Of a stretch of DNA of 45,190 bases, positions 1-44,651 are shown one piece after another. Under the pieces are notes generated by a model. The model had not been told where the DNA came from. It saw nothing but the letters and a program-made list of their open reading frames with translations, and did not search any database. The stretch is from a phage: sequence record PZ050807.1; one strand, given 5' to 3'. The stretch's first letter is position 1, and every line of letters begins with the position of its first letter. The translations under genes and the position numbers were made by a program.

Positions 1-91
1 TTAACGCTAAAAACCAGGCTGTAACGGCGAAGAACGACGCCGTGTCTGCTAAGAACGATGCGCAGACTGCGAAGACTGCCGCAGAAACAGC
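1..91. repeat. Terminal direct repeat; identical copy at 45100..45190, showing the window wraps a circular or circularly permuted genome unit of 45,099 bp
   Basis: Base-by-base comparison of window start and end: 91/91 identical. Confidence 0.9.
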
Positions 92-1854: not shown

Positions 1855-2736
1855 ATGGTTACTAAAACAAACATCCCAGCGGATATTACGGCGCTGAAAA
1901 ATTCTACTTCATCATTGTCGTCTGACAAGATGGATAAGTCAGCCAATTTGTCGGACCTTGCAGACAAAACTGTGGCGCGAAGTAATCTTGGTTTAGGGTC
2001 AGCAGCCACGTTGGACGTAGGGGATAGCGGCGGAAACGCGATGAAGGTTGGTGATTTTGGATTGGGGCGACCTAACGGCGCTAAGGTTTTCTATACTACC
2101 TCGCAAGACACGCTACTTGCTGGACTGGACCAATACGGTTTATGTGTGTTCAGGAACGACCTGCAGATCGCTGCGCCGTGGGATATTTGGAACTATTCAT
2201 CAAACCTGTTCTTCCGCGCCGGAGATACTTACAGTATGCTAAGCATACCGTTTGAGGCGGCTGGTAAGGTGAAGGTTTTCGGCGGTGCCGCGGGTTACGG
2301 GTGGAAGACAGGGCGAACACTGCTCGATAACACAACGACGACTATTGACACTAACGGATTTGTCAAGCAAGCATCGCCGATTGTTAAAGTATTTGGTGAT
2401 GGTAAATTTGAGGTTAATGAAGAGTCGAAAGGGGCTAGTGTAGATCGCATATCCGTCGGCGTTTATCGTATCTCTGGTGTTCTCGGTCTTAACTCAGATG
2501 CGGCCTGGGGTGGCGTAGGCGGTGGCTTCGAGATTCCGGTAGACATCAACAAGCAGCCGCGGGTGTGGGTTGACTTCGAGGTTGAGCCTGAAGGGTCTAT
2601 CATTCTTAAAACGTACCACCGGACACACGACACGGCTCCGTCTTTTGCAAAAAACATAATTGACGGCGTTAATGACGGCGATCCGGTAGATATTCCATCA
2701 GACGCTTTTATCTCAGTTCGCGTTAACATGCCGTAA
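1855..2736 (+). CDS. Tail fibre protein (second fibre / receptor-binding candidate)
   Basis: N-terminal motif ANLSDLADKTVARSNLGLGSAATLDVG, characteristic of phage tail-fibre N-termini; Gly-rich beta-type C-terminus; RBS-like GAGGG upstream. Confidence 0.55.
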   Translation: MVTKTNIPADITALKNSTSSLSSDKMDKSANLSDLADKTVARSNLGLGSAATLDVGDSGGNAMKVGDFGLGRPNGAKVFYTTSQDTLLAGLDQYGLCVFRNDLQIAAPWDIWNYSSNLFFRAGDTYSMLSIPFEAAGKVKVFGGAAGYGWKTGRTLLDNTTTTIDTNGFVKQASPIVKVFGDGKFEVNEESKGASVDRISVGVYRISGVLGLNSDAAWGGVGGGFEIPVDINKQPRVWVDFEVEPEGSIILKTYHRTHDTAPSFAKNIIDGVNDGDPVDIPSDAFISVRVNMP

Positions 2737-2740
2737 GTGG

Positions 2741-2766
2741 AAAGGGGCCAAACGGCCCCTTTTTCA
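2741..2766. terminator. Bidirectional intrinsic terminator between convergent genes
   Basis: Hairpin AGGGGCC-AAAC-GGCCCCT (2743..2760) followed by TTTTT; A/T-rich on the other side. Confidence 0.7.
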
Positions 2767-3339
2767 TTGTGCGGATTCCCAGTCTATCTTTCGGCGTATT
2801 GTAGGACTTTCGAAATACTCTTTGCCGTCTACTTCAACCAAAGGCCAGTCGTTCACAATGGCGTATGGATCTGCGACCTCTTCGATTATGCCGGTGGCTT
2901 TATGCTGACCAAACCCTACCAGCACCAGAATCACCCCGGCAACGCGACGCTCCATATACTCGTATGCGCAACGTGCTTCAACCAGACCGCGACGGATGCC
3001 GGTAGTGGCCTTCACTTCGTACGACCAGACGGCATCAATAACTTGGTCTTTGTAATCCGGCCCTACTTTCACTTTGCGCTTACCAAGCATTACCACATCG
3101 CCACGGTTCATGGTGTTGCCGCTAAATAATCCGGTGCGCTGGAGTAAGCCTTGCGGGATGCAACTGCGACCGCCGGTTTGCCCTTCCAGATACATCCCTG
3201 CGAACATCTCGCCAAGTACACCAACGAGACGGCTTTGCTTGCACGCGTCGGAACGGTTACGCCAGTAGTCAAACTCAATGCTTGCAATCAACGATGCCAG
3301 ATGAAATGCTTTGCCAGATAATTCATATTCACCGTACAT
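2764..3339 (-). CDS. Hypothetical protein, 191 aa (last gene of the leftward early operon)
   Basis: Long ORF with RBS AAGGAG 8 nt upstream of the ATG at 3339; no motif recognised. Confidence 0.55.
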   Translation of the reverse strand: MYGEYELSGKAFHLASLIASIEFDYWRNRSDACKQSRLVGVLGEMFAGMYLEGQTGGRSCIPQGLLQRTGLFSGNTMNRGDVVMLGKRKVKVGPDYKDQVIDAVWSYEVKATTGIRRGLVEARCAYEYMERRVAGVILVLVGFGQHKATGIIEEVADPYAIVNDWPLVEVDGKEYFESPTIRRKIDWESAQ

Positions 3340-3383
3340 GATTAAACTCCTTCAGGTTGCGGGCCGAAGCCCGCGATTAATGA

Positions 3384-3894: not shown

Positions 3895-3932
3895 TGGTTA
3901 ATATAGTGCAACCAAATACGGATTGCAACCAA
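3895..3932 (-). promoter_or_regulatory. Sigma70-type early promoter (minus strand): -35 TTGCAA, 17-nt spacer ending in ATTGGTTGCAC, -10 TATATT
   Basis: Read on the minus strand: TTGCAA(3928..3923)-17 nt-TATATT(3905..3900); two copies of the TTGGTTGCA motif. Confidence 0.55.
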
Positions 3933-4154
3933 TTATTTTAATTCCTCAATCAAATTGGCACGGACAATACGGGCCGAGAAGGCATCGCACACAAGATGGC
4001 AACGCGCCGTCATGACAAGCCAGCCGGTTAGGTCACGGCCTAGCAATTGCTCCGGGCGGCTTACCCGCAATACTTTATTTCCAGGGAAAACCAGGTAACG
4101 TTTAATGATCTCATCCACGACGCGCGGACTGCGATCGACGACTAAGATATTCAT
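3933..4154 (-). CDS. Hypothetical protein, 73 aa
   Basis: Strong RBS AAGGAGA upstream of the ATG at 4154; overlaps the 3' end of the methyltransferase ORF by 44 nt. Confidence 0.45.
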   Translation of the reverse strand: MNILVVDRSPRVVDEIIKRYLVFPGNKVLRVSRPEQLLGRDLTGWLVMTARCHLVCDAFSARIVRANLIEELK

Positions 4155-4620: not shown

Positions 4621-5071
4621 GCTGCGGATCCAGTGCGTAAAGTGGGATCTGTTTGGCGCTTTCCCACAGGCGTTTAATCCTTTCCTGTTCGCCTTTACCC
4701 ATTGGGCGCATGTCCGTACTATAGTTGCCGTTGGTGGTGTCACGCCACGCGATCAGCACCAGGTCTTTACGGTCGATCTTCGTTGTTCGGCCTTTCGGAC
4801 GGACGTATTCTTCAGCACGTTTGCACTGCTCGCGTAGCCCTTCGGCGGTTATCCGGGTGAGCGATACGGATGTTGTGTACCCGGAGCGCTGCATAATGGT
4901 GATCAGTTCGCCCAGCAGTTCGAAGCGTTCCTCTAATTCCAGCAATTGCTTGTTGGTATCCTGGAATTTTTTATACATATCTTCGGCGTGGCTACGTGCT
5001 TCTTCCGCCTTCTCGCGGGCTTCCAGACACTGTGAAGCCCAGTACGCTTTTTCTTCTTGTAAAATTTTCAT
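4607..5071 (-). CDS. Hypothetical coiled-coil protein, 154 aa
   Basis: Charged helical sequence; start overlaps the upstream gene stop (ATGA). Confidence 0.5.
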   Translation of the reverse strand: MKILQEEKAYWASQCLEAREKAEEARSHAEDMYKKFQDTNKQLLELEERFELLGELITIMQRSGYTTSVSLTRITAEGLREQCKRAEEYVRPKGRTTKIDRKDLVLIAWRDTTNGNYSTDMRPMGKGEQERIKRLWESAKQIPLYALDPQHDGE

Positions 5072-5310: not shown

Positions 5311-5352
5311 CGTCAAATCCTCATATTAAAAAAGGGCGTTCCCTTCAGAACA

Positions 5353-5390
5353 CCCCCAATATAATGCAACCAATCTCGCAATGCAACCAA
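5353..5390 (-). promoter_or_regulatory. Sigma70-type early promoter (minus strand) of the TTGGTTGCA family
   Basis: Minus strand: TTGCAT(5386..5381)-17 nt-TATATT(5363..5358); two TTGGTTGCA copies. Confidence 0.55.
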
Positions 5391-5394
5391 TTTA

Positions 5395-5715
5395 TTAGAA
5401 GAAATTTGGGTCGCTCATCACATCCACAAGATAAAGGTTGTTAAGGCGGTTGCCGTAATGGCCTGGCGTGCGCTGACGGCACACAACAGCGTAACCAGGG
5501 GGGATGGTATTTCCGGTCGCCAGAATCCACGCCACGCGCGCGCCGTTTAGTGATTTACCGTTGTATTCTATGCGGGTGCCGCCATCTGCAGTGTTAAGGC
5601 TGCCAATCTTCTGACCGGTAGAATTGAGACGGATAACACCAGTCTGGCTATCGTAATTAAACAGTTGTTTGGTCAGTGCTACCGAAAAATCAATTGGATC
5701 AAAGATAGTGTTCAT
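5395..5715 (-). CDS. HNH_3-like (homing-endonuclease-like) protein, possibly degenerate
   Basis: Resembles the HNH_3 pattern (GARVAWILATGNTIPPGYAVV...GNRLNNLYLV) but the expected His residues are replaced. Confidence 0.4.
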   Translation of the reverse strand: MNTIFDPIDFSVALTKQLFNYDSQTGVIRLNSTGQKIGSLNTADGGTRIEYNGKSLNGARVAWILATGNTIPPGYAVVCRQRTPGHYGNRLNNLYLVDVMSDPNFF

Positions 5716-8606: not shown

Positions 8607-10894
8607 TATTTTCTATACCTGTACATGATGTCGCCTTCAGCGGCGAGCGGGAAGCCCTTAGCCCACACCGGCAGATCGCACATTAACCGGCATAACTCTT
8701 CGGTCGTGTAATCGTCCGTGTCCGGCACTTCGGTGATTAATTCATCGTGCACCGACAGGACGATTTCGTATCCCGCCGCTTCGACACCAGGCATAGACCA
8801 TGCGAGAATATCGCGACACAGCGCCTGCACGATGTTCTCCGTCAGTTTGCCGCCGTAGGTGTACTGGAAGCCCCACTGGCGCGTCGTCTGATTCTCGCCC
8901 TGATATTTAATGCGGGTGCTGGTTTTCTTCTTGCCAGTATCCTCATCGATTTCAGTCGTGACAGACAGCGCAATCCCCGGATAGCTCATGATACGACCGG
9001 ACGGCAACTCCACTTTCAACCACCAGCCTGGCGCGTCCGGGTCGTCCCGCTCATCGTCAAACGTAGGGTCGTGCTTCGCCTTCGTGCGCATGATTTTAAG
9101 CGCCTGTTTGCCGTCTGGACGCACATTAGCACCGGCCCAGTATGATTTACCTGGATTGCGGATTGCGCACAGCACAGCATCTTCCAGTTCGGCCCAGAAT
9201 CTAACCGTTTCCGGGTGGGACTCACGCCACATACGCTTGATCGCATCGCAGGTAAGCCACACGTTCTTCGGCAGGATGTAAGTCGGTCGCTCGTCTTTCT
9301 TGCCGGGCTTCGGCGGACGCTTCGCTTCATTAATCCTCGCGTACTCGTACCCGCGTTTCGCTGCGGCCCATATGTGATCCGGGAACGTGCCTTTCATCAC
9401 GTCTGCCATCGCATACAGGTCAAGACCCAGGTTTTTGGCAAACTGCAAGAACGCCGCAACGCCGCCGCCGTAGCCGAGGCCCAATTCACACGCCTTACCG
9501 ATCTGGCGGAGGTCTTTGCGGTTGGCCTTGATATAATCCGGGTCGAGGCCGAACATCTTACCGGCAGTTTCGCAATAAATATCGCGTCCCGCCTTAAAGA
9601 CCATCAACGCAGTTTTCTCGCCCGCAATCCAGGCAAGGCCGCGTCCTTCCACGTTGGAGTAGTCCGCTACAACAAACTTCTTACCCTTAGCCGGGATAAT
9701 GCAGCCGCGTACGGTCGATGCTGTCAGCTTAGATATGTCGTACGCCCAGTGTGCGGTCCCGCGTAATAGGGAATTGATGCCGTTGGTTAGCATGTGCGAC
9801 CGGACCCAAAACGACACGTCGCTTTCACCATCACGGCGCTTGATCTTGCCTTCGTGGTCGTCGCTGTACTCGCCACGCGCCAGGTTTTGAGGCTGAAAAC
9901 CTTTACCGGCCCAGCGCAATGTTCGTTTAGCACCACCATACTGAAGACAACCACGGCGGCGACCGTCAGACGACAGACCGTTAACGAGCGGATTGTATTT
10001 GGTCGACGCCGTTGATGACGCACCGAGGCGCATTTCAATCAGAACTTTGCCCTCGTCCGGGAAGTCCGGGTCTTCCAGCAAATCATTCAGTGTGGATTTC
10101 TGCGCGTTATGGATAGTGAAAGCTGGCGCAATATCTCGTAACAACGGCAGGAAATCATTTCCGGTCAGCTTACCGCCAAACTTCTCCATCGCTTCTTCTT
10201 TCAGTTCTTCCTTGTGCGCTTCAACGGCCTTGATGGCGGCGTAGGCCAGTTCGGTGTCCACGTTGAAGCCGCGGTCATTGATCAACTGGTCAATTGCCAG
10301 TATCTGGTCTTCCTTCGGAGTATTACCCCAATCCGGGATACGCCAGTACACTTCACGCATCGCGATAATATCGAAGCGTGCATACTTGAGGAATTTGGCC
10401 CACTCTTCCGGGTGAGTCTCGCGAGTGTAGCGACGGACTTTGTAAGTCTTCGGCGTTGGCTTACAGAATCGCTTAATCAGCGCCTTGCCCGCTTTATCTT
10501 TCGCATGTTCAGCGTCAACGCCCAATACCTGGCATTGCATGTCAAGGCTGCCGGGGAGGGCGTGACGGAAGGCCATAATCATGGTGTCTTCGATCTGGCA
10601 AACCGGCAGGTCAATACCCCACTTCTCACGGATAACCAGGCGGTCAAACAGGAGGCCGTTAGCCATTACGATTTTTGCTTTCTTGCGGACTACCGCACGC
10701 AATGCCTTACGCAGTTCACTCGGCATCTTCGGCGATTCAGTAGCGTCCCACGTCTGAACACGGCCTTCATCAATGGCGTAGGTGCAGACCATGATTTCCG
10801 TGGTTGGGTGTTCTGCATACGCGTATGCGCCGACCTTCTTCAGATCAACGCCGCTAAACGTTTCGGTATCGAGGAATAGTCGTTCGAAGTTCAT
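8606..10894 (-). CDS. DNA polymerase, family A (T7/Pol I-like, with 3'-5' exonuclease)
   Basis: Exo I motif FLDTETFSG; motif B RQIGKACELGLGYGGG; motif C VLSVHDEL; start set at MNFERLF (ATG 10894). Confidence 0.9.
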   Translation of the reverse strand: MNFERLFLDTETFSGVDLKKVGAYAYAEHPTTEIMVCTYAIDEGRVQTWDATESPKMPSELRKALRAVVRKKAKIVMANGLLFDRLVIREKWGIDLPVCQIEDTMIMAFRHALPGSLDMQCQVLGVDAEHAKDKAGKALIKRFCKPTPKTYKVRRYTRETHPEEWAKFLKYARFDIIAMREVYWRIPDWGNTPKEDQILAIDQLINDRGFNVDTELAYAAIKAVEAHKEELKEEAMEKFGGKLTGNDFLPLLRDIAPAFTIHNAQKSTLNDLLEDPDFPDEGKVLIEMRLGASSTASTKYNPLVNGLSSDGRRRGCLQYGGAKRTLRWAGKGFQPQNLARGEYSDDHEGKIKRRDGESDVSFWVRSHMLTNGINSLLRGTAHWAYDISKLTASTVRGCIIPAKGKKFVVADYSNVEGRGLAWIAGEKTALMVFKAGRDIYCETAGKMFGLDPDYIKANRKDLRQIGKACELGLGYGGGVAAFLQFAKNLGLDLYAMADVMKGTFPDHIWAAAKRGYEYARINEAKRPPKPGKKDERPTYILPKNVWLTCDAIKRMWRESHPETVRFWAELEDAVLCAIRNPGKSYWAGANVRPDGKQALKIMRTKAKHDPTFDDERDDPDAPGWWLKVELPSGRIMSYPGIALSVTTEIDEDTGKKKTSTRIKYQGENQTTRQWGFQYTYGGKLTENIVQALCRDILAWSMPGVEAAGYEIVLSVHDELITEVPDTDDYTTEELCRLMCDLPVWAKGFPLAAEGDIMYRYRK

Positions 10895-17454: not shown

Positions 17455-17461
17455 AATTTGC

Positions 17462-17542
17462 GCGCATTGGTTGCCAATATGGTTAATTTGTGCGCGCATT
17501 GGTTGCCAGATTGGGCATTAAATCTATATCGCATTGGTTGCC
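17462..17542 (+). repeat. Three direct iterons GCGCATTGGTTGCC spaced about 35 bp apart (candidate origin or operator array)
   Basis: Repeat copies at 17462, 17494 and 17530, immediately after the primase-helicase stop. Confidence 0.6.
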
Positions 17543-17580
17543 GTGTAGTGCTAAATAAGTGAATAGTTATGCAAAATAAG

Positions 17581-17755
17581 TGCATAAAACAAACGGGACA
17601 AAAACGGGACAAACGACAAACGGGACAAAACGGGACGTCCCGCCGTCCCCCTCAGGAGTGGCGCGGGTTTGAGGCAAACGGGACAAGCGGGACAGACCAC
17701 AGTCTTTCAGACTAGACGGGGGGTATGGTCCCCCCTCCGTCTGAGACTGCATAAA
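17581..17755. repeat. Structured non-coding element A: ACGGGACA iterons, CGGGACGTCCCG palindrome and a long stem-loop; paralogue of 34104..34440
   Basis: Direct comparison with copy B: about 150 bp near-identical. Confidence 0.6.
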
Positions 17756-17907
17756 AGCTCTGGTTGCATAATCAACGGCAGCATAGTGAAAAATGCGGCG
17801 GGGGTAGATCTCGGCAACCAATGCGAGTTGAAGAGTGGAGAGTGAAAAATGCAGTTTGCAATTGCAACTCATAGCGATCAGCATTTTCATGCGCGTGATT
17901 AATATTG

Positions 17908-17936
17908 GTTGCACCCACCTTGGCACCTTGCTATAT
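17908..17936 (+). promoter_or_regulatory. Rightward promoter of the TTGGTTGCA family: -35 TTGCAC, 17 nt, -10 TATATT
   Basis: TTGCAC(17908..17913)-17 nt-TATATT(17931..17936). Confidence 0.5.
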
Positions 17937-17965
17937 TGGCTGCACACCATCATGAGGACTGAACA

Positions 17966-27240: not shown

Positions 27241-27541
27241 ATACGCAGCAGTCGGATTGATTCTCGGCCTTGTAATTGGGTTCTGGCAAGGTGACAACTA
27301 TCGTGCTGGCGTGGTGGCGGAGGCGGCGCAGGAAGCGCAAGCCAAAGCCCAACGGCAGCAAACTAAGGTAATCCATGAGTCGGTACAGAAAGAGCAGGCC
27401 CGCGAAGTGGAGTTCCGCACAGTTGAGAAAGAGGTGATTAAATATGTCACGCGTCCTGATCGCGATAATTGTAAGTTTGATGCTGACCGCGTGCGGATCA
27501 AGCAACGTGCCGTTGATGCCGCTAACGGAATCAGCAATTAA
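27233..27541 (+). CDS. i-spanin (Rz-like)
   Basis: N-terminal transmembrane helix MIKYAAVGLILGLVIGFW followed by a charged coiled coil; contains the start of the overlapping o-spanin. Confidence 0.55.
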   Translation: MIKYAAVGLILGLVIGFWQGDNYRAGVVAEAAQEAQAKAQRQQTKVIHESVQKEQAREVEFRTVEKEVIKYVTRPDRDNCKFDADRVRIKQRAVDAANGISN

Positions 27542-27674
27542 GCCGCCGTGTAAGTTTGAGTCGCCATCGGAAGATCCGGACGAAGATTTAGCGATTGATG
27601 TGCGAAATATGAAATGCGGGGCGGAGTTAAGGGCACAAGTGCTGGATTTGCAGAAATTAATTAAGGGGCCGTAA
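27444..27674 (+). CDS. o-spanin (Rz1-like outer-membrane lipoprotein)
   Basis: Signal peptide with lipobox LTAC-G, Pro-rich; starts inside Rz in the +1 frame (overlapped architecture). Confidence 0.55.
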   Translation: MSRVLIAIIVSLMLTACGSSNVPLMPLTESAIKPPCKFESPSEDPDEDLAIDVRNMKCGAELRAQVLDLQKLIKGP

Positions 27675-27687
27675 TGGCCCCTTTCTA
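27664..27687. terminator. Bidirectional intrinsic terminator
   Basis: AGGGGCC-GTAAT-GGCCCCT followed by TTCTATT; same stem as the terminators at 2743 and 43357. Confidence 0.65.
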
Positions 27688-28449
27688 TTAGCGCGGAATA
27701 CCGCAGATTTCGTTTAGTGTCTTCACGTCAAGCGCTACTGCCGTTGACTTCTTCTCTTCCTGCGGGATGAACTGTTTCACTTCAGGCCATGCCTTAATAA
27801 GTTTGGTGTCTGTAGTGTACTTATTCAGAGTACCCATAACTGACAATTTAAACTCATCGTATTTAGCACGTAAATCGCGGCGCGCCTTGTCGTTCTTATC
27901 CAGACGTTTGCAAAATTCATGCTCTGCCGGGTAATCTGCACGACCGCGAGGCTTGTAGATCGGCACTTGCTCACCTTCCGCGTTAATTTCCACCAGCGCC
28001 GTAAGTAGCGCAGTTTCAAACCCAGGTACGATTTCGCCAATGTCCGGGGCCATCGAGTTATTGTAGCGGTCTTCCCAGTAGCCTCGGTGACAGCGGCTGC
28101 TGTAGTTATCACCGCTCAATGACAGTGTGCGGATGTTACCACCCATGTTGACTTCGAACGTTGCATCGTACACAGCACCAATGCCGTGGGGCATGTCCTT
28201 GTTATGGCTGAAGGTTGCACGGCTGGCGTACACGCTTATGCTAAACATGCCGTTATTTGTGTCTTGATAGCTGCGCATCATTTTCTGCAACCCAACGAAG
28301 CTGGTAACACCTTTCGGCATCTGATCCAGAGTGATAGCCAGCGCCAGGTCGCGCGATTCGGTCATTAACTTTTTGGCCTGCTTCGTGATTTCGTGGCCTG
28401 CCAGGATGTTAGCCAGGATTTGCTTTTTAATGTCTTTAGTCAGTCTCAT
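27688..28449 (-). CDS. Hypothetical protein, 253 aa; inverted single-gene cassette inside the head module
   Basis: Start at MRLTKDIK (ATG 28449, RBS AGGAAACAACA); own early-type promoter and terminator. Confidence 0.5.
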   Translation of the reverse strand: MRLTKDIKKQILANILAGHEITKQAKKLMTESRDLALAITLDQMPKGVTSFVGLQKMMRSYQDTNNGMFSISVYASRATFSHNKDMPHGIGAVYDATFEVNMGGNIRTLSLSGDNYSSRCHRGYWEDRYNNSMAPDIGEIVPGFETALLTALVEINAEGEQVPIYKPRGRADYPAEHEFCKRLDKNDKARRDLRAKYDEFKLSVMGTLNKYTTDTKLIKAWPEVKQFIPQEEKKSTAVALDVKTLNEICGIPR

Positions 28450-28479
28450 TGTTGTTTCCTCGTTTGTTGGTGTGCAACC

Positions 28480-28508
28480 AATATATTGCAACCAATTAGC
28501 CAATGCAA
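28480..28508 (-). promoter_or_regulatory. Early-type promoter (minus strand): -35 TTGCAT, 17 nt with ATTGGTTGCAA, -10 TATATT
   Basis: Minus strand: TTGCAT(28508..28503)-17 nt-TATATT(28485..28480). Confidence 0.5.
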
Positions 28509-28515
28509 GCAAATT

Positions 28516-28544
28516 TTGTGATTATTTTTATCACTGATAATATT
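28516..28544 (+). promoter_or_regulatory. Candidate promoter for the scaffold/capsid genes: TTGTGA-17 nt-TAATAT
   Basis: Hexamer match by eye. Confidence 0.4.
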
Positions 28545-29333: not shown

Positions 29334-29400
29334 CGAGCGTGAAAAATTAGGGTAACATTAAAAGCACTGGGCGATTGCTCTCTACTCAAAGGATAAACTT

Positions 29401-30522
29401 ATGTCTTTAACAGTGTTCCAGCGTAAACTCGTCACCGCGGTTACGCAAATGATCCCCGACAACTTGAACGTCTTCAACGCTGCCGCTAACGGCGCGGTCG
29501 TTCTCGGTACTGGCGAAGTGCTGAAAGATGTTGTCGAGAAGATGTCTGTAGGTCTGATCGCCAACCTGGTGTCTGACCGTAACGCATATGCCCCGGTTGG
29601 TACTCCTGCCGATGCGAAAGTGCTGGCGCGTATGCTGACCAACTCCGTTAACCTGTCCGCGAAAGTCGGTCCTGTTGCAATCACCAAAGCTATGATGGCT
29701 AAAATCGAAACCAACGTTAACAGCGTTGCGGCTGAGATTGCGGCACAGGCTACTCAAGCTATCTTGCTGCACTACCTGAAAGCGGGTATCGGCGCTGGTA
29801 AAGCTGCGATCGACACTAACGCTGCGGCGAAATATACCCAACCGGCGCGCGTTGACGGTGTAGGCGGTCGTACCTTCCCGACCCTGGCAGACTTCCCGCT
29901 GGCGGCGGCTAAGTTCGGCGATCAGGCATCTCTGATTAAGTCCTGGTTTATGGACGGTGTGACCTGGGCTAACTTCATTGCATATCAGGCGCTGCCTTCT
30001 GCTGAGCAGGTGTTCGCGATCGGCGACCTTCAGGTAATGGGTGATGGCTTAGGCCGCCGCTTTATTATCTCCGATGCCGCTGCCGATGCAATGGGCGCTG
30101 GCAAAATGCTGGGTCTTGTTCCGGGCGCGGTAGCAGTTACTACCAACGGTCTGGATATGCTGGCGCAGGAGCGTGGTGGTAACGAGAACATCGAGCGCTG
30201 GTGGCAGGGTGAGTTTGACTTTAACGTCGCTGTTAAAGGCTATCGCATGACCGCGGCAGCACGCGCAGGCGTTGAAGGCGTCCGTTCCTTCAAACTGGCT
30301 GATATTACCAATACCAGTAACTGGGAACTGGATCAGGGCCAGGTCGATAACGCGCCGTACACTACCTACGACGTTGGCGGCACGGATACTGAAGAGGGAT
30401 CTACCACTTCACTGAAAGAGAAAGGTCGTCGTCGTAAGCAGGACGCGCAGGCCGTACCGACCCGCCACATCAAGGAAACTGCCGGTGTGTTGGTAACTCT
30501 GACGGCAACCACCGCATCTTAA
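29401..30522 (+). CDS. Major capsid protein
   Basis: 373 aa ORF after the scaffold, strong RBS context, flanked by terminators; synteny. Confidence 0.65.
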   Translation: MSLTVFQRKLVTAVTQMIPDNLNVFNAAANGAVVLGTGEVLKDVVEKMSVGLIANLVSDRNAYAPVGTPADAKVLARMLTNSVNLSAKVGPVAITKAMMAKIETNVNSVAAEIAAQATQAILLHYLKAGIGAGKAAIDTNAAAKYTQPARVDGVGGRTFPTLADFPLAAAKFGDQASLIKSWFMDGVTWANFIAYQALPSAEQVFAIGDLQVMGDGLGRRFIISDAAADAMGAGKMLGLVPGAVAVTTNGLDMLAQERGGNENIERWWQGEFDFNVAVKGYRMTAAARAGVEGVRSFKLADITNTSNWELDQGQVDNAPYTTYDVGGTDTEEGSTTSLKEKGRRRKQDAQAVPTRHIKETAGVLVTLTATTAS

Positions 30523-33345: not shown

Positions 33346-33376
33346 TTTGGTCGGGTAAATGGCGAGTGTTAACATT

Positions 33377-33398
33377 GGGGGCGTAAGCCCCTTTTTTA
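33377..33398 (+). terminator. Intrinsic terminator/attenuator after the major tail gene
   Basis: GGGGGCG-TAA-GCCCC followed by TTTTTT. Confidence 0.6.
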
Positions 33399-33412
33399 AT
33401 GGAGAGAATATC

Positions 33413-34103: not shown

Positions 34104-34106
34104 ATA

Positions 34107-39299: not shown

Positions 39300-39907
39300 C
39301 CACGTTTAAATTATACGGCGTCTTAGGACGCCGTTTTGGTAAAGAGCATAAGCTGGACTGTTTCACACCAGGCGAGGGAATTACCGGTCTGTGTGTGAAA
39401 TTACCCGGCTTACAGGAATATTTAATGTCTGCGCACCTGGACAATATGATGTTCAAAGTGCGTAAAGGCGACCACACAATGGGAAGCACCGATGAACTGG
39501 GCGAATCCCACGGCAACCGCGTCATTACCATCGCGCCAGTTATGACGGGTGCAAAAAGCGGCTTAGGCCAATTGCTGGCTGGCGTGGCTATCGTAGTAGC
39601 CTCGTTCTATACGGGTGGTCTTGCAACTGCCGCTTTCGGAGCTTCCGCCGCCACCGCTGCCGCGATCGGGACCGCCACATTCTCATTCGGTATGTCAATG
39701 GCGCTGGGTGGTGTTATGCAGCTACTATCACCGCAACCGAAAGGATTGCAGACACGCCAGGATGTTGATAACAAAGCATCGTACGCGTTCGGCGGGCCAG
39801 TAAACACGACTGCGCAAGGGACCGCACTTGGTGTATTATGGGGCGAGCGTGAGATCGGCGGCGCTATTATTTCAGCCGGTATCGTAACTGAGGATTTACA
39901 CGAATGA
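39290..39907 (+). CDS. Tail assembly protein I-like
   Basis: Synteny; Gly/Ala-rich hydrophobic C-terminal half; start at MAMTTFKLYGV. Confidence 0.55.
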   Translation: MAMTTFKLYGVLGRRFGKEHKLDCFTPGEGITGLCVKLPGLQEYLMSAHLDNMMFKVRKGDHTMGSTDELGESHGNRVITIAPVMTGAKSGLGQLLAGVAIVVASFYTGGLATAAFGASAATAAAIGTATFSFGMSMALGGVMQLLSPQPKGLQTRQDVDNKASYAFGGPVNTTAQGTALGVLWGEREIGGAIISAGIVTEDLHE

Positions 39908-42900
39908 CTATCGTCTATTCCGTAACGGGCCATAAGGGCGGTGGCGGGAAACAGCATACCCCGCAAGAAACACCCGACAGCCTGCACTCGCTGGCTAAAA
40001 TCCGCATTCTGCTCGCATTGGGTGAGGGGGAATTTGAAGGCATCCCGTCGGCAGCAGAGCTACGCAAGCGCGTCTATCTGGACGGCACGCCGATCATGAA
40101 CGAGGATAACTCGGAAAACTTCCCTGGCGCGCGCGTTGAGTTCCGCCCAGGCACACAGCACCAGGACGTGATTCACGGATTTTCAGCCGTGGAAAGCGAG
40201 TCGTCGGTAAACGTCAAGCTGGAGCAGGGCTCACCGTGGGTACGTCAAATCACCGACACCAGTCTGGACGCGGTGCGCATTCGTATTGGCATTCCTGCGT
40301 TGTACACCAACGAAGATAACGGCGACCTGGTTGGTGGGCGTATCGACTATAAGATCGTGGTGTACACCGACAACGCCGATCCGCGTGAGTTTGCATTCGC
40401 TGCCGTTGGTAAAACAATGTCGCTGTATGAGCGCGACCACCGCATCGAATTACCGTCGAACGTTAACACCGGCTGGCGCGTCGAAGTGCACCGCATCACC
40501 GCAGACTCCACCTCGGCGAAAGTGGTAAACGATATTCGCGTACAATCTATCACCGAGATAATCGACGCCCGTTTGCGCTACCCGCTAACCGCGTTGCTGT
40601 TCGTTGAGTTTGATGCGAAGGCTTTCCAGGATATCCCGCGCGTGTCTATCAAGTGCAAAGGCCGCAAAGTGCTGATCCCGACCAACTACGACCCGATCGC
40701 ACATACCTATAGCGGCGACTGGGACGGCACTTTCAAGCGTGCATGGACGGATAACCCTGCGTGGCACTGGTACGATATTTGTATTACGGAACGCTTCGGC
40801 CTCGGTCGTCGCATCAAGCCGCAGATGCTAAACCGCTATGCGCTTTACCAGATTGCACAACGCTGCGATCAGATGGTTAGTGACGGCAACGGCGGACAAG
40901 AAATACGGTTTAAGAATGATATGTACATACAGTCGCAGACCGACGCATGGACCGTTCTGAAGGACTTAGCCGCCATCTTCGCCGGAATGACCTGGTGGGG
41001 CAATCAGATGCTGAATATTGTCAGTGACCAACCAGTCGCTGCGGTTTCGCACACCATTACGAATGCCTCCGTTATTGATGGGCGATTCGATTATGCGTCT
41101 GGCAGCCAGAAGACTCGCTATTCAACATTCGCGGTGGCATACGGCAATCCGGCTAACCACTACGATGACGCAATCGCAACGGGCCAGCGCGTGGAACTGG
41201 TGCGCCGCCACAAGATTAACCGCCTTGATATTACGGCGATCGGCTGTACGCGTGAATCTGAAGCGCAACGCCGCGGTCACTGGGCGCTTATTTCAAACCA
41301 GCTTGACCAGCAGGTGAGCTTTAAAGTAGGTATGGAAGGTCTGTTCTTCATTCCGGGGAGCGTGGTCGCTATCGCCGACACCAACATTTCCGGCGGTTTC
41401 GAGATTCGCGGCGGTCGCTTACTGGAAGACCCAGGCACGCGCACGGTGCTTAACACAGACGAAGAAATCACATTCCGCCCAGGTGATAAATTCCTGGTGC
41501 GCACTGCGAACGGTAGTGTCGAGACTCGCGCAATATCAAGCGTCAACGGCAACAAGGTTACGTTATCCAGTGCCCTGGATGCCGACCCGATCCCGTTCCA
41601 GCCGTTTTGCGTCGACGGTGATGATATTCAGGTGCAGAAGTTCCGCATCACCGATCTGGAGTATGACGACGCAACCAGCACTTTCTCGGTGCGCGGGATT
41701 GAGTACAACGACAGCAAATATGATGCCGTTGATAATGGCGCTCGTCTTGATCCTGGCATCTTTACGCAAATGCCGGACGGTGTGCTGAAGGGGCCGGAAT
41801 CCGTAACCATTACCCCGTCGCAGATTTCAAGCCAGGGTCAGTTAATCACCAACGTGGATATTGTCTTTCCACCGGTGAAAAATGCCGTTGTATATGAAAT
41901 CCAGTGGCGAAGGACCAGCCTTCAGAATATGGCGTTGCAGTGGGGTAACGACTGGGTAAACTTGCCTCGTACGCCGTCGAACGGTGCACACATCCCCAAC
42001 GTGTTCTCCGGTAACTACCAGGCGCGCGTCCGCGCAATCGGTATGGGTGAAATCTCATCCCCGTGGGTAGAGTCTGCCATCACGCCGATCGAGGGTCGTT
42101 TAGGTGGGCTGAATGCGCCAATCATTACGGCGGCAGTTTCCGGTTTGCATCAGATCTTGTGGAAGTGGAATCACAACAACGCTGCGACCGATATTTCATA
42201 CACAGAGCTTGAAGTGCGCAAGCCAGGGACTGAAGAGTGGCACTTCCTCACTAACGTGCCGTACCCAGGCGCGGAGTACGCGCAGACTTCGCTTGAGTTC
42301 GGGATTTACCAGCAGTTGCGAGCACGCGTAGCAGATAAAATCGGCAACCTGTCCGATTGGTCCGCACCGTTTGAAGGCCAGGTGAGCGATAAAGTTGACG
42401 ACTACATGAAGGGACTCGACGATGAGTTTCTTACTTCTGAAGACGGCAAGCACTTCCAGGAACAGATCGACACGTTCCCGCAAGGCATTTACGAGTCAAT
42501 GCTTACGGACGCGCAGCAGTTGCTTAACGCACGTGCCGAGTATCAAGGTATTTACGCCGAGATCAAAGTGGCCTATACCGTTGCTGCCGATGCGCACCAG
42601 GCGGTCGCTGAACTGGAAACGCTGATCGGCACGCGCCTTGATGATGCGGAAGCCGCAATCCATACGCTACAGACTGCGCAGAGCACACACGAACAGGCGT
42701 TCGCTCAGTACCAGCAAACGGTGTCAGCTAAGTTTGGCGATCAGGAAGCCGCAATCCAGTCAGTGCAAACGGCAACGAGTGATGTAGCCAGCGCTCTGGC
42801 GACCTACAAAACACAGGTAGCCGCGCAGTTCGGGCAACAGTCCGCCGCGATCGAGCAGAAAATGACGTCTACGTTTAACCACTCTGGTGGTAACGCAACC

Positions 42901-43350
42901 TACAGCCTGAAAGCTGGAGTGACGTACAACGGGACGTATTATGATGCCGGTATGCAGCTTTCGGTAGTTGCCGAAGGGAACTCGGTTAAATCGTGCATCG
43001 CGTTCAAGGCGGACCAGTTCTACATCATGCACCCGTCGAACGGTACGCTATCCTCCGCGTTCATCGTTGACGGCGGGCAGGTGTACATCGACACGGCCCG
43101 AATCAAGAACGCGTCCATTAACTTTGCGCAGATCACGGACACGCTGCAATCCAACAACTGGCAGCCTGGCAGCCAGGGGTGGCGAATCGCGAAGGATGGC
43201 GGCGCGGAGTTTAACAACGTGACAATCCGCGGCAACGTGTATGCGCAGACTGGTAACTTCGGTTTTTCAAGTGGGTCGGTACAAATCGACTGGTCGGGGG
43301 TAAACGTGCCGTTGCCTGGCGGAGGGCGGGTTAAAGTGGGGGTGTGGTAA
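39904..43350 (+). CDS. Central tail fibre / host-specificity protein J-like
   Basis: 1148 aa; N-terminus GHKGGGGKQHTPQETPDSLHSLAKIRIL is J-like; synteny. Confidence 0.8.
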   Translation: MTIVYSVTGHKGGGGKQHTPQETPDSLHSLAKIRILLALGEGEFEGIPSAAELRKRVYLDGTPIMNEDNSENFPGARVEFRPGTQHQDVIHGFSAVESESSVNVKLEQGSPWVRQITDTSLDAVRIRIGIPALYTNEDNGDLVGGRIDYKIVVYTDNADPREFAFAAVGKTMSLYERDHRIELPSNVNTGWRVEVHRITADSTSAKVVNDIRVQSITEIIDARLRYPLTALLFVEFDAKAFQDIPRVSIKCKGRKVLIPTNYDPIAHTYSGDWDGTFKRAWTDNPAWHWYDICITERFGLGRRIKPQMLNRYALYQIAQRCDQMVSDGNGGQEIRFKNDMYIQSQTDAWTVLKDLAAIFAGMTWWGNQMLNIVSDQPVAAVSHTITNASVIDGRFDYASGSQKTRYSTFAVAYGNPANHYDDAIATGQRVELVRRHKINRLDITAIGCTRESEAQRRGHWALISNQLDQQVSFKVGMEGLFFIPGSVVAIADTNISGGFEIRGGRLLEDPGTRTVLNTDEEITFRPGDKFLVRTANGSVETRAISSVNGNKVTLSSALDADPIPFQPFCVDGDDIQVQKFRITDLEYDDATSTFSVRGIEYNDSKYDAVDNGARLDPGIFTQMPDGVLKGPESVTITPSQISSQGQLITNVDIVFPPVKNAVVYEIQWRRTSLQNMALQWGNDWVNLPRTPSNGAHIPNVFSGNYQARVRAIGMGEISSPWVESAITPIEGRLGGLNAPIITAAVSGLHQILWKWNHNNAATDISYTELEVRKPGTEEWHFLTNVPYPGAEYAQTSLEFGIYQQLRARVADKIGNLSDWSAPFEGQVSDKVDDYMKGLDDEFLTSEDGKHFQEQIDTFPQGIYESMLTDAQQLLNARAEYQGIYAEIKVAYTVAADAHQAVAELETLIGTRLDDAEAAIHTLQTAQSTHEQAFAQYQQTVSAKFGDQEAAIQSVQTATSDVASALATYKTQVAAQFGQQSAAIEQKMTSTFNHSGGNATYSLKAGVTYNGTYYDAGMQLSVVAEGNSVKSCIAFKADQFYIMHPSNGTLSSAFIVDGGQVYIDTARIKNASINFAQITDTLQSNNWQPGSQGWRIAKDGGAEFNNVTIRGNVYAQTGNFGFSSGSVQIDWSGVNVPLPGGGRVKVGVW

Positions 43351-43356
43351 AACGCA

Positions 43357-43380
43357 AGGGGCCGTTTGGCCCCTTTCTTA
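43357..43380. terminator. Bidirectional intrinsic terminator
   Basis: AGGGGCC-GTTT-GGCCCCT followed by TTCTT; same stem as the terminators at 2743 and 27664. Confidence 0.65.
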
Positions 43381-44343
43381 ATACATATTAGGAAGGACAA
43401 TCAGCGGTGTTGGTACGACAACATTGCGGTTAGGCATCTGGAATTGCTGCCGTGAATAGTTGCCAATGACGCGGTTTTTCGCTGCACCAACGACGCTACC
43501 CGCCATGCGTATCCCGTTCATGCGTACGTGGTTATAACCGCTATTGTTTTCAATAAGCGCGCCCGTGTATGAAAGCTGAATAAGGCTGTTACCGATATTC
43601 TGCCACCCTGCGCTAAGGTCAACCGTCCCGTTAAACACAAACGGCTTATTGACGGTGGAGAATGTAACCTGGCCTGCGTTGTTGGTCATCGTGATACCGG
43701 TTCCGGGGCTTGGCGGTGTGTTATTGAATATAACCAATTCCATGTCAACGGCAGCACCCACATCATCAATCCCGCCGTAAGCCGCATTGCGGACGATAAT
43801 ACTGCCTCCATCGAAGCCAACCGACACGTTAGGGTCATCCCAACGGGCGAACGGAACACCTCCGACCGGCAGCGGCATACTTCCGTTCACATGGACGCGC
43901 TGCGCGTAGCGACAGGTCATCAGCCGAGCGACGTTTGATATGGCGGTGAAGTCCGTCGAGTTAGCCACCAGAAGCCCAGCATTACGCGACCCCACCGGCA
44001 GCACTTCCATAATCGTTCCCGCCCAGGTTGGAAGCCCGCTATAAGCGCCCAGCGCGTCAGCACCGTGCAGCGTAATTCCGCCATCACCATTTCGAGATAT
44101 TGACGTTACAAACATCGGATCGGGTATTACCAGTGTTTGGTCGAACACTTCCACCACTTCAACGGGATTAGTTAGCACGACTATAAGCTGCGATCCAGGC
44201 GTTAGCGGAGTATTGACTGTTAGCGTCTTGTCAGATTGGCAGCGCTGATTAAAATTGGTACAAAAAGACGGAGCACGAAGCCCCGCCGTAATTTCCATTC
44301 TTGGACGCCCATCGTTGTATTCGATAAGGATACCTGCACCCAT
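43378..44343 (-). CDS. Beta-rich hypothetical protein, 321 aa; inverted cassette between J and the tail-fibre genes
   Basis: G/N/T/V-rich with no catalytic motif; RBS GGGAG; co-transcribed with the upstream lipoprotein gene. Confidence 0.5.
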   Translation of the reverse strand: MGAGILIEYNDGRPRMEITAGLRAPSFCTNFNQRCQSDKTLTVNTPLTPGSQLIVVLTNPVEVVEVFDQTLVIPDPMFVTSISRNGDGGITLHGADALGAYSGLPTWAGTIMEVLPVGSRNAGLLVANSTDFTAISNVARLMTCRYAQRVHVNGSMPLPVGGVPFARWDDPNVSVGFDGGSIIVRNAAYGGIDDVGAAVDMELVIFNNTPPSPGTGITMTNNAGQVTFSTVNKPFVFNGTVDLSAGWQNIGNSLIQLSYTGALIENNSGYNHVRMNGIRMAGSVVGAAKNRVIGNYSRQQFQMPNRNVVVPTPLIVLPNMY

Positions 44344-44345
44344 AA

Positions 44346-44570
44346 TTACCACTCCCGTGATTTAACTGATACCGTACCAGAGAAGTTACCGTCTGAATCT
44401 GCCGCCAAACCGGTGAATCGCATGTCAATGTCTCCGGCAGCGACCTTTTGCCCGTCAACATAACGCAACATGCAGCTTCCCGCAACGTAGGTAACGCAAT
44501 CGCCATTATGACGCTCAACAGCACAACCAGACAGCATAGCAACGACTAAAATACTTAATAAAGTTTTCAT
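44346..44570 (-). CDS. Small lipoprotein, 74 aa (candidate superinfection-exclusion factor, Llp/Cor-like by context)
   Basis: Signal peptide MKTLLSILVVAMLSGC with canonical lipobox LSG-C; strong RBS AAAGGAGA; early-type promoter upstream. Confidence 0.55.
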   Translation of the reverse strand: MKTLLSILVVAMLSGCAVERHNGDCVTYVAGSCMLRYVDGQKVAAGDIDMRFTGLAADSDGNFSGTVSVKSREW

Positions 44571-44599: not shown

Positions 44600-44628
44600 A
44601 ATATAGTGCAACCAATACGTGATTGCAA
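44600..44628 (-). promoter_or_regulatory. Early-type promoter (minus strand): -35 TTGCAA, 17 nt with ATTGGTTGCAC, -10 TATATT
   Basis: Minus strand: TTGCAA(44628..44623)-17 nt-TATATT(44605..44600). Confidence 0.55.
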
Positions 44629-44651
44629 CCAATTTATGAGGAGTTTTCGCT

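What the first reader, a model, noticed from the sequence alone, without database searches (positions are those of the whole stretch)
2741..2766. Three near-identical bidirectional terminators mark every junction between convergent modules
AAGGGGCC-N4/5-GGCCCCTT occurs at 2743..2760, 27664..27682 and 43357..43374, each exactly where plus-strand and minus-strand transcription units converge (tail fibres/early operon, spanins/inverted gene, J/inverted cassette). The shared stem suggests duplication of a terminator cassette along with mobile gene modules, or a common protein-binding hairpin.
Basis: seen in the sequence. Interest (0 to 1): 0.45.

Follow-up and report, generated by a model that had tools for sequence, protein, structure and literature searches.

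The report
Conserved terminator hairpins between convergent phage genes
The three look-alike GC-rich hairpins are ordinary transcription stop signals at the three places where oppositely oriented genes meet in an E. coli Dhillonvirus genome; relatives carry them at the same places, where some records already annotate them as terminators.

Summary
GGGGCC-N4/5-GGCCCC occurs exactly three times, against 0 in 100 shuffles, and each copy lies between convergent stop codons that are 27, 13 and 27 nt apart. The window is a complete Dhillonvirus (HK578-like coliphage) genome, 99% identical to phage Ioannina.

The hairpins have the anatomy of intrinsic terminators. Each has a 6-bp G/C stem of about -12.5 kcal/mol, a T-tract on the + strand and a weaker one on the - strand. 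They are the only terminator-like hairpins in the genome with near-symmetric flanks.

The same stem sits at the same three junctions in 8-13 divergent relatives, while loops and flanks vary. GenBank records of WFI, WF5505 and HK578 already annotate these positions as putative terminators, on both strands in HK578.

"Every convergent junction" holds (3 of 3). The stem is not specific to such junctions, because relatives carry a fourth copy after the major tail protein gene.

The duplication idea is partly supported. In phages rolling, WF5505 and 101114BS4, a ~40-nt terminator cassette is directly repeated on both sides of an extra inverted gene. Elsewhere the hairpin stays with the backbone while the neighbouring gene is swapped.

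Nothing supports a protein-binding role. The verdict is ordinary and low interest, with a modest lead towards terminators acting as recombination joints.

The parts
2741..2764 (.). Site 1 terminator hairpin: A-tract 2741-2743, stem arms 2744-2749 / 2754-2759, loop AAAC 2750-2753, T5 tract 2760-2764. The last T is the first base of the minus gene's stop codon.
   Evidence: hairpin -12.5 kcal/mol; d = +34 on the + strand, +5.8 on the - strand. The stem is invariant in 11 lineages. The orthologue is annotated as a terminator in WFI and WF5505.
27663..27684 (.). Site 2 terminator hairpin: stem arms 27665-27670 / 27676-27681, loop GTAAT 27671-27675, then TTTCTATT. The o-spanin stop codon TAA (27672-27674) lies in the loop, and the 5' arm encodes the last residues K-G-P.
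   Evidence: d = +12 / -1.9. It is conserved in 13 lineages, and the loop variants GTAAT and GTGAT both keep a stop codon. HK578 annotates it as a terminator on both strands.
43356..43377 (.). Site 3 terminator hairpin: stem arms 43358-43363 / 43368-43373, loop GTTT 43364-43367, then TTTCTTAAT.
   Evidence: d = +19 / -0.5. The same stem is present in 8 lineages, and different stems occupy the same junction in HK578, TheodorHerzl and L009, where the module is replaced. It is annotated as a terminator in WFI.
1855..2736 (+). Distal tail-fibre gene (Phage_tail_C_2 domain) that ends 7 nt before the site 1 stem. It is a horizontally acquired host-range gene.
   Evidence: PMC11430396 describes the Ioannina orthologue CDS28 as acquired by recombination.
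2764..3339 (-). Last gene of the minus-strand early/replication-modification operon (phrog_10558, unknown function). It ends 4 nt from the site 1 stem.
   Evidence: Homology to all distant relatives begins exactly at 2742.
27444..27674 (+). o-spanin (Rz1-like lipoprotein) gene whose 3' end overlaps the site 2 hairpin.
27688..28449 (-). Inverted Nmad5 gene. It is the moron-like cargo between the site 2 hairpin and its own promoter.
   Evidence: In relatives it is replaced by a pol III beta-like gene or by HK578 gp06, and it is partly deleted in Teewinot, with breakpoints at 27684/27692 and 28446/28465.
28474..28523 (-). Promoter-like repeat (ATTGGTTGCA x2, -10 TATATT) that would drive the Nmad5 cassette towards site 2.
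   Evidence: (D4).
39904..43350 (+). J-like tail tip protein gene, ending 7 nt before the site 3 stem.
43378..44570 (-). Inverted cassette of a DUF6453 membrane protein (43378-44352) and a phage lipoprotein (44346-44570). The positionally corresponding inverted small gene is annotated as a super-infection exclusion protein in Teewinot. The cassette ends 4 nt from the site 3 stem.
44600..44643 (-). Promoter-like repeat (TTGCAA-17-TATATT with two ATTGGTTGCA copies) that would drive the inverted cassette towards site 3.
   Evidence: (D4).
3900..3943 (-). Member of the same promoter-like repeat family, upstream of the last two minus-strand genes that end at site 1.
   Evidence: (D4).
33377..33397 (+). 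Co-directional terminator after the major tail protein gene. In 10 relatives it is a fourth GGGGCC-AGCAC-GGCCCC-T6 hairpin. In this genome it has become GGGGGC-GTAA-GCCCC-T6.

Best explanation
The three hairpins are Rho-independent (intrinsic) transcription terminators used by the host RNA polymerase. They sit in the very short gaps (13-27 nt between stop codons) where a plus-strand late or structural unit meets a minus-strand unit. Those pairs are the tail fibres against the early replication/modification operon, the spanins against the inverted Nmad5 gene, and J against the inverted membrane-protein/lipoprotein cassette. On the plus strand the RNA forms a 6-bp G/C stem followed by a U-tract, which releases the polymerase. 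On the minus strand the same stem forms with a poorer U-tract, so termination there is probably weaker and may be helped by head-on polymerase collisions at the stem-loop. The result is that early or moron transcription from the strong ATTGGTTGCA-type promoters does not run antisense into the late structural genes, and late transcription does not run antisense into the inverted genes. The shown steps are sequence anatomy, predicted stability, position, conservation and prior annotation. The inferred steps are actual 3'-end formation, efficiency in each direction, and how much plus-strand read-through feeds the downstream late genes. The shared stem is an old, genus-wide feature of the Dhillonvirus backbone, present at four positions in most relatives. 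It most likely reflects common descent or copying between sites, maintained by selection for a strong stem.
For: There are three exact matches against 0 in shuffles. The core hairpins fold at -12.4 to -12.5 kcal/mol, and 45-nt contexts fold at -15.7 to -26.9. The plus-strand tails are TTTTTCATT, TTTCTATT and TTTCTTAAT, with terminator scores d = +34, +12 and +19. The minus-strand scores are +5.8, -1.9 and -0.5, whereas the 11 other terminator-like hairpins of the genome score -14 to -73 on their reverse strand. The three are therefore the only near-symmetric ones. The stem is invariant at the orthologous junctions in 11 (site 1), 13 (site 2; one G.U variant) and 8 (site 3) lineages. Flanking genes in these lineages are only 72-82% identical, and loops and flanks vary. 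Where the J C-terminus and inverted cassette are replaced (HK578, TheodorHerzl, L009, Teewinot), a different A-tract/hairpin/T-tract element sits at the convergent junction. The positions are annotated as putative terminators in WFI, WF5505 and HK578, on both strands in HK578. The same design (AAGGGGCC-N4-GGCCCCTT) occurs in at least 120 unrelated viral contigs, 96% of them with a T-rich tail. A Tunavirus carrying a homologous tail-fibre gene has an analogous annotated bidirectional terminator with a different stem. In E. coli, terminators between convergent genes are widespread and depend on a stem-loop (10.1101/2022.10.23.513370).
Against: No RNA 3'-end data exist for any Dhillonvirus in the literature I could search, so everything is prediction. 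The minus-strand U-tracts are poor, especially at sites 2 and 3. At site 2 the 5' arm is coding and the stop codon lies in the loop, so a translating ribosome could interfere, and part of the conservation could be a coding constraint. Late genes downstream of sites 2 and 3 must still be expressed, so termination on the plus strand cannot be complete unless unmapped promoters exist. In KarlBarth the site 1 hairpin is truncated, yet the phage was isolated and sequenced (listed host E. coli K-12), so the element is dispensable at least there.
Confidence: 0.8

Rival explanations
1. Besides terminating transcription, the hairpins and the conserved ATTGGTTGCA promoters act as short portable homology patches. 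Recombination between them lets Dhillonviruses swap, insert and delete the genes they flank, in the manner of the PeSL cassettes of T4-like phages. The near-identity of the copies would then be kept up by copying between sites.
For: The site 2 cargo is exchanged (Nmad5, pol III beta-like, HK578 gp06, or partly deleted) with breakpoints at the hairpin (27684/27692) and at the promoter (28446/28465). In rolling, WF5505 and 101114BS4 a ~40-nt cassette (AGAAAATAATTC + hairpin + T-tract + GTTA) is directly repeated on both sides of the extra pol III beta-like gene. The repeat is perfect in rolling, while the second copy is decayed and its loop flipped in the other two. All distant relatives regain homology exactly at 2742. 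In KarlBarth the sequence diverges immediately after the loop of site 1. The loop variant AAAC is found at both site 1 and site 3 in the same two lineages only (the window group and IMG/VR contig 3300045988_003101), which suggests copying between sites. PeSL stems are also typically GGGG...CCCC, and crossovers were mapped in their loops (PMC2839356).
Against: The hairpins lie within 4-8 nt of stop codons, so 'breakpoint at the hairpin' cannot be told apart from 'breakpoint at the gene end'. The homology is only 16-40 nt. The foreign tail-fibre gene arrived without the hairpin. At site 3 the hairpin lies inside the swapped module, not at its edge. The tandem arrangement could come from a single illegitimate event. 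No circles or recombinants were observed.
Confidence: 0.3
2. The shared stem is convergence, not common origin. GGGGCC/GGCCCC is simply one of a few optimal short G/C stems for intrinsic terminators, and each site reached it independently.
For: The identical AAGGGGCC-N4-GGCCCCTT element occurs in at least 120 unrelated viral contigs. A second stem type (GCCCGC/GCGGGC) also recurs at four or five other terminators in this genome. At the major tail protein site the stem changed in this lineage without loss of the terminator.
Against: Three to four identical 12-nt stems in 45 kb, with related loops (A[TA]NC or its flip) and shared GAA...TTTTTTA flanks at sites 1 and 3 (27 of 28 nt identical in WFI), exceed what stem preference alone predicts. 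Only 2 of the 120 unrelated loci carry more than one copy. A clear duplication is seen in relatives.
Confidence: 0.3
3. The hairpins mainly protect RNA 3' ends or serve as processing sites, stabilising transcripts that end elsewhere, rather than causing termination.
For: Stable 3' stem-loops block exonucleases (established knowledge). The genome has at least one strong hairpin without any T-tract (3355-3378) that may play such a role.
Against: T-tracts directly after the stem are conserved on the plus strand in all relatives (T4-T9), which is the hallmark of termination and is not needed for stabilisation.
Confidence: 0.08
4. The palindromic GGGGCC...GGCCCC sequence is a common binding site for a phage or host protein, either as an RNA hairpin or as a DNA inverted repeat.
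For: Only the strict conservation of the stem sequence at several sites supports this.
Against: Loops differ, change length (4 or 5 nt) and flip orientation between lineages. The stem is replaced by unrelated stems in module variants and at the major tail protein site. The GGGGCC and GGCCCC hexamers occur 11 and 10 times in the genome, against 7-8 expected, so they are not a rare signal. There is no Rfam family match.
Confidence: 0.04

Closest known systems
Rho-independent (intrinsic) terminators annotated in Dhillonvirus GenBank records (vB_EcoS_WFI MK373791, WF5505 NC_073060, HK578 NC_019724)
   Same: They occupy the same three gene junctions and have the same GGGGCC stem. They were predicted with ARNold or MFOLD at -13.5 to -16.6 kcal/mol, and HK578 lists the spanin junction on both strands.
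   Different: The loops and tails differ. This genome has shorter plus-strand T-tracts at sites 2 and 3, and its nearest relative Ioannina carries no terminator annotation. None of these predictions has been tested experimentally.
Bidirectional terminators between convergent gene pairs in E. coli (SEnd-seq; Ju et al. 2019, as described in 10.1101/2022.10.23.513370)
   Same: A single stem-loop sits between closely spaced convergent genes and serves both transcription units. The stem-loop is needed to position termination or collision.
   Different: The E. coli class is described as not resembling canonical intrinsic terminators. The phage hairpins look canonical on the plus strand. No transcript-end data exist here.
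Morons of lambdoid and other phages (PMC3594210)
   Same: The inverted Nmad5 and membrane-protein/lipoprotein cassettes are independent units with their own predicted promoter and terminator. They are inserted in the late structural region and vary between relatives. The SO-1 record already calls the gene at site 2 a 'possible moron'.
   Different: This is a virulent phage. The terminator is shared with the opposing late operon and stays in place while the cargo gene changes.
PeSL promoter/stem-loop cassettes of T4-like phages (PMC2839356, PMC4122927)
   Same: They are repeated, conserved regulatory sequences with GGGG...CCCC stems that flank variable genes. Indels are bounded by copies, and crossovers have been mapped in the loop.
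   Different: A PeSL is one composite element of about 100 bp. Here the hairpin and the promoter lie at opposite ends of the cassette, 0.8-1.2 kb apart. Only 5332-5401 is composite. Recombination between copies is not demonstrated.

Membership tests
Intrinsic (Rho-independent) terminator | Stable G/C-rich RNA stem-loop | tested here: met
   6-bp G/C stems with 4-5 nt loops fold at -12.4 to -12.5 kcal/mol. In 45-nt context the values are -15.7 to -26.9 kcal/mol, with z-scores of -1.8 to -5.4.
Intrinsic (Rho-independent) terminator | U-rich tract immediately 3' of the stem | tested here: met
   The plus-strand tails are T5CATT, T3CTATT and T3CTTAAT, with nT 3.2-4.1 and d = +12 to +34. Relatives have T4-T9.
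Intrinsic (Rho-independent) terminator | Located just downstream of the last gene of a transcription unit | tested here: met
   The stems begin 7 nt after the plus-gene stop codon at sites 1 and 3. At site 2 the stop codon lies in the loop.
Intrinsic (Rho-independent) terminator | Structure conserved at the orthologous position in relatives | tested here: met
   The stem is invariant in 8-13 lineages while loops and flanks vary. Other stems occupy the same junction in replaced modules.
Intrinsic (Rho-independent) terminator | RNA 3' ends map to the U-tract, or termination is shown in vitro | not testable with these tools
   No transcript-end data for Dhillonviruses were found.
Bidirectional terminator | Lies between convergent transcription units | tested here: met
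   All three real convergent junctions carry one.
Bidirectional terminator | Terminator-like anatomy on both strands (A-tract upstream and T-tract downstream) | tested here: inconclusive
   The minus-strand tails are TTTCCACTT, TTAATTAATTTC and TTGCGTTTTACC, with d = +5.8, -1.9 and -0.5. These are borderline but far above the reverse-strand scores of the other 11 hairpins, which are -14 to -73.
Bidirectional terminator | 3' ends of both opposing transcripts at the element | not testable with these tools
   This needs strand-specific 3'-end mapping.
Moron (for the inverted cassettes that end at sites 2 and 3) | Own promoter and own terminator, independent of the surrounding operon | tested here: met
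   Predicted sigma-70-type promoters with paired ATTGGTTGCA repeats lie at 28474-28523 and 44600-44643, and a hairpin lies at the 3' end. This is by sequence only.
Moron (for the inverted cassettes that end at sites 2 and 3) | Present, absent or replaced among otherwise syntenic relatives | tested here: met
   Site 2 carries Nmad5, a pol III beta-like gene, both, HK578 gp06, or a partial deletion. Site 3 carries DUF6453 plus lipoprotein, an rtp44-like gene, or a different arrangement in Teewinot.
Moron (for the inverted cassettes that end at sites 2 and 3) | Deviant base composition | tested here: inconclusive
   GC is 0.47-0.52 in the cassettes against 0.536 for the genome, a small difference.
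PeSL-type mobile regulatory cassette | [quoted passage not shown] | tested here: not met
   At the three sites the hairpin stands alone, and the matching promoter is 0.8-1.2 kb away at the other end of the cassette. A composite promoter/hairpin exists only at 5332-5401.
PeSL-type mobile regulatory cassette | Repeated conserved copies flanking variable genes, with indels bounded by copies | tested here: inconclusive
   A direct ~40-nt repeat flanks the extra gene in rolling, WF5505 and 101114BS4. Breakpoints fall at the hairpin and the promoter but coincide with gene ends.
PeSL-type mobile regulatory cassette | Recombination between copies shown (mini-circles) | not testable with these tools
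   This needs inverse PCR on infected cells.

The most novel reading that the evidence does not exclude
In Dhillonviruses a small family of near-identical terminator hairpins, together with a family of near-identical ATTGGTTGCA-type promoters, works as a PeSL-like system of recombination joints in a siphovirus. Short conserved regulatory sequences would guide the exchange, insertion (with duplication of the hairpin cassette) and deletion of moron genes and of the host-range module. Hairpin-mediated template switching would flip loops and homogenise copies.
Probability: 0.25. Interest if true: 0.45.

Novelty: already known. Interest (0 to 1): 0.18.

Why it matters
As terminators these elements are routine. 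They explain how a compact virulent phage keeps early or moron transcription and late transcription from running antisense into each other across 13-27 nt gaps. They are also handy, well-defined part boundaries for anyone engineering Dhillonvirus host range or inserting cargo genes. The only wider point concerns genome mosaicism. If the hairpins and promoters really guide gene exchange, the PeSL idea from T4-like myoviruses would extend to an unrelated siphovirus group and help explain why mosaic joints in phage genomes fall so neatly at gene borders.

Tried and rejected
- An Rfam scan of the whole window at gathering thresholds found nothing.
- A consensus fold of the site 3 junction that included the replaced modules (HK578, TheodorHerzl, L009) misaligned the non-homologous hairpins. 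It therefore gave no usable covariation, and the different stems had to be read by eye.
- IMG/VR searches with the inverted-cassette proteins returned only 3 loci and 1 locus, so GenBank genomes were used for the comparison.
- The tool's own terminator scan missed sites 1 and 3. It extends the stem into the A/T flanks and then finds too few T bases. I rescored with the core stem.
- A fourth convergent junction at 17454/17567 was considered and rejected. The ORF has no family hit and covers the non-coding repeat 'region B'.
- I tested whether the acquired tail-fibre gene brought the hairpin with it. Homologues in Kuravirus and Tunavirus align only up to the stop codon and carry different hairpins.
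- I tested whether GGGGCC is a rare signal in the genome. It is not.
- Literature searches for Dhillonvirus terminators or transcriptomes found no transcript mapping.

Full report
**What the window is.** Megablast places the whole 45,190-base window in the genus Dhillonvirus, the HK578-like virulent siphoviruses of E. coli. It is 97-99.8% identical to phage Ioannina (OQ589852) and to three 'Dhillonvirus LM40P1' assemblies, and about 75-83% identical to some 150 other members. Bases 1-91 repeat at 45100-45190 (D1). The window is therefore a complete, circularly permuted genome with an assembly overlap inside the tail-fibre gene.

**Check of the observation.**
- GGGGCC-N3-6-GGCCCC matches exactly three times, at 2744-2759, 27665-27681 and 43358-43373. 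None of 100 dinucleotide-preserving shuffles gave a match.
- Each lies between convergent stop codons: 2736/2764, 27674/27688 and 43350/43378. The stops are 27, 13 and 27 nt apart.
  - a tail-fibre C-terminal-domain gene against the last gene of the long minus-strand early operon;
  - the o-spanin against an inverted Nmad5 gene;
  - the J-like tail tip gene against an inverted DUF6453 membrane protein plus lipoprotein cassette.
- From the annotation of Ioannina and my ORF list, the genome has three plus-to-minus switches and all three carry the hairpin.
- A nominal fourth junction (17454/17567) depends on a 128-aa ORF with no PHROG or Pfam match. That ORF covers a block of GGGAC-type repeats annotated as non-coding 'region B' in phage SO-1.

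**Anatomy.**
- Each core hairpin folds at about -12.5 kcal/mol on either strand. In 45-nt context the values are -15.7 to -17.6, and -26.9 for site 1 on the + strand, where the A- and T-rich flanks extend the stem.
- I applied a d'Aubenton-Carafa-type score as a rough guide only. The + strand values are clearly terminator-like (d = +34, +12, +19). The - strand values are borderline (+5.8, -1.9, -0.5).
- Eleven other terminator-like hairpins in the genome score -14 to -73 on their reverse strand. The three junction hairpins are therefore the only ones with near-symmetric A-tract/stem/T-tract design.
- This fits a two-way role, but the minus direction is predicted to be weaker.
- At site 2 the o-spanin stop codon lies in the loop and the 5' arm encodes the last residues. 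Relatives have loops GTAAT or GTGAT, and both keep a stop codon.

**Relatives.** I read the junctions in WFI, WF5505, HK578, TheodorHerzl, TH13, SECphi18, LF50P3, SO-1, Teewinot, rolling, 101114BS4, KarlBarth and four IMG/VR loci from three contigs (tables).
- The GGGGCC/GGCCCC stem is unchanged at site 1 in 11 lineages. It is unchanged at site 2 in 13 lineages, one with a G.U pair, and at site 3 in 8 lineages.
- The adjoining genes in these lineages are only 72-82% identical, and the loops and flanks vary.
- Plus-strand T-tracts are T4-T9 in the relatives.
- Where the J C-terminus and the inverted cassette are a different module (HK578, TheodorHerzl, contig L009, Teewinot), another A-tract/hairpin/T-tract element with a different stem sits at the convergent junction. 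The structure and position are kept while the sequence is not, which is what a terminator predicts.
- GenBank records already mark these positions as putative terminators: WFI 10418-10436, 26076-26091 and 29415-29430; WF5505 29397-29412; HK578 4992-5018(-) and 5002-5022(+).
- Ten relatives also carry a fourth GGGGCC-AGCAC-GGCCCC-T6 hairpin after the major tail protein gene, between co-directional genes. In this genome that site reads GGGGGC-GTAA-GCCCC-T6. The stem is thus a genus-wide terminator family, not a mark of convergent junctions as such.

**How general the design is.** Of these, 96% have at least 5 T in the 8-nt tail on one strand and 62% on both. Only two loci carry more than one copy. 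The stem is a common terminator solution, but several copies in one small genome are unusual.

**Transcription units.**
- A ~44-nt repeat occurs four times on the minus strand, at 3900-3943, 5358-5401, 28474-28523 and 44600-44643. It contains two ATTGGTTGCA copies and a TTGCAA-17-TATATT promoter match.
- Two of these repeats lie at the heads of the inverted cassettes that end at sites 2 and 3, and one lies upstream of the last two genes that end at site 1.
- The inverted cassettes therefore look like morons, each with its own promoter, a cargo gene and a terminator. The SO-1 record already says 'possible moron' for the gene at site 2.
- The likely job of the hairpins is to stop these promoters from transcribing antisense into the terminase-to-spanin genes, the tail genes and the tail-fibre genes, and to stop late transcripts from running antisense into the cassettes.
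- How the late genes beyond sites 2 and 3 are expressed, by read-through or by further promoters, remains open.

**The duplication and mobility idea.**
- Homology breakpoints against relatives fall at the hairpins:
  - Every distant relative regains homology at exactly 2742.
  - At site 2 the cargo is exchanged between 27684/27692 and 28446/28465, so the hairpin and the promoter stay while Nmad5, a pol III beta-like gene or HK578 gp06 alternate.
  - At site 3 the hairpin lies inside the exchanged module.
- In rolling, a ~40-nt cassette (AGAAAATAATTC, hairpin, T-tract, GTTA) is perfectly repeated on both sides of the pol III beta-like gene, which sits in tandem with Nmad5. In WF5505 and 101114BS4 the second copy has a mismatch and a flipped loop. 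This is a direct case of the cassette being duplicated together with a gene.
- In KarlBarth the sequence departs right after the loop of site 1.
- Loops appear as reverse complements of each other between lineages: AAAC/GTTT, AGAT/ATCT, ATAC/GTAT and GTAAT/ATTAC. The AAAC variant occurs at both site 1 and site 3 in the same two lineages only. This hints at hairpin-mediated template switching and copying between sites.
- Against a strong claim:
  - The hairpins lie 4-8 nt from stop codons, so hairpin breakpoints cannot be separated from gene-end breakpoints.
  - The homology is short.
  - The tail-fibre gene next to site 1, described as horizontally acquired in PMC11430396, matches Kuravirus and Tunavirus genes only up to its stop codon. 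Those phages have different hairpins.
- The closest described system is the PeSL cassette of T4-like phages. Its stems are also GGGG...CCCC and its loops host crossovers (PMC2839356, PMC4122927). A PeSL, however, is one composite promoter/stem-loop element, which the three sites are not.

**Protein-binding idea.** Nothing supports it. The loops vary, change length and flip, and the stem is replaceable. The hexamers occur 10-11 times in the genome against 7-8 expected, and no Rfam family matches.

**Verdict.**
- The elements are best explained as conserved intrinsic terminators serving convergent units. They are strong for the late strand and probably weaker for the opposite strand.
- This is a known kind of element, and the orthologous copies are already annotated in relatives, so the finding is ordinary.
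- The residual interest is the lead that these terminators and the matching promoter family act as recombination joints for moron and host-range gene exchange. I rate that at about one in four.

Noticed in passing
window 3900-3943, 5358-5401, 28474-28523, 44600-44643 (minus strand); 17904-17940 (plus strand): There is a family of near-identical promoter-like repeats, AAATTGGTTGCA-N7-ATTGGTTGCAnTATATT. ATTGGTTGC occurs 16 times exactly in the genome. The paired copies overlap the -35 and spacer like operator sites, so a phage regulator may bind them.
   Followed up: partly
window 5332-5401: A terminator-like hairpin (GGGGGTGTTC-TGAA-GGGAACGCCC plus T4, minus strand) starts directly after the -10 box of one of these promoters. 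This composite promoter/stem-loop resembles a T4 PeSL, and it lies next to a homology breakpoint (5324) seen in many relatives.
   Followed up: partly
window 17455-17965 and 34100-34490: Two non-coding blocks are rich in AAACGGGAC repeats and share a 178-nt stretch at 80% identity. Three TTAAAnnTGCGCGCATTGGTTGCCA repeats lie at 17451-17543. The blocks correspond to 'region A/B' in the SO-1 record, and the first lies where the WFI and WF5505 records begin and end. The 128-aa ORF annotated there in Ioannina is probably spurious.
   Followed up: partly
window 27665-27681: The o-spanin stop codon sits in the loop of the site 2 hairpin, and the 5' arm encodes the last residues (K/R-G-P). Loop variants in relatives (GTAAT, GTGAT) always keep a stop codon. 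Translation could therefore modulate termination here.
   Followed up: partly
sites 1-3 across relatives (L005-L016, L140-L143): The hairpin loops appear as reverse complements of each other in different lineages (AAAC/GTTT, AGAT/ATCT, ATAC/GTAT, GTAAT/ATTAC). This is the signature of small hairpin-mediated inversions.
   Followed up: partly
window 3355-3378: A strong hairpin (-13.6 to -15.5 kcal/mol, UUCG loop on the minus strand) lies between two minus-strand genes and has no T-tract on either side. It may be an RNA stabiliser or processing site rather than a terminator.
   Followed up: no
window 1-91 = 45100-45190; 1-217: A 91-nt terminal overlap from circular assembly falls inside the tail-fibre gene. 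That gene also contains 42-nt tandem coding repeats.
   Followed up: no
L146 (phage KarlBarth) 1080-1100: The site 1 hairpin is cut after its loop (GGGGCCATCC followed by unrelated sequence). This phage lacks an intact hairpin at that junction, and the breakpoint lies inside the element.
   Followed up: partly
window 33359-33775: The ORF start inherited from the Ioannina annotation for the tail assembly chaperone lies upstream of the major-tail-protein terminator (33377-33397). The real start is probably after the hairpin, as annotated in WFI.
   Followed up: no
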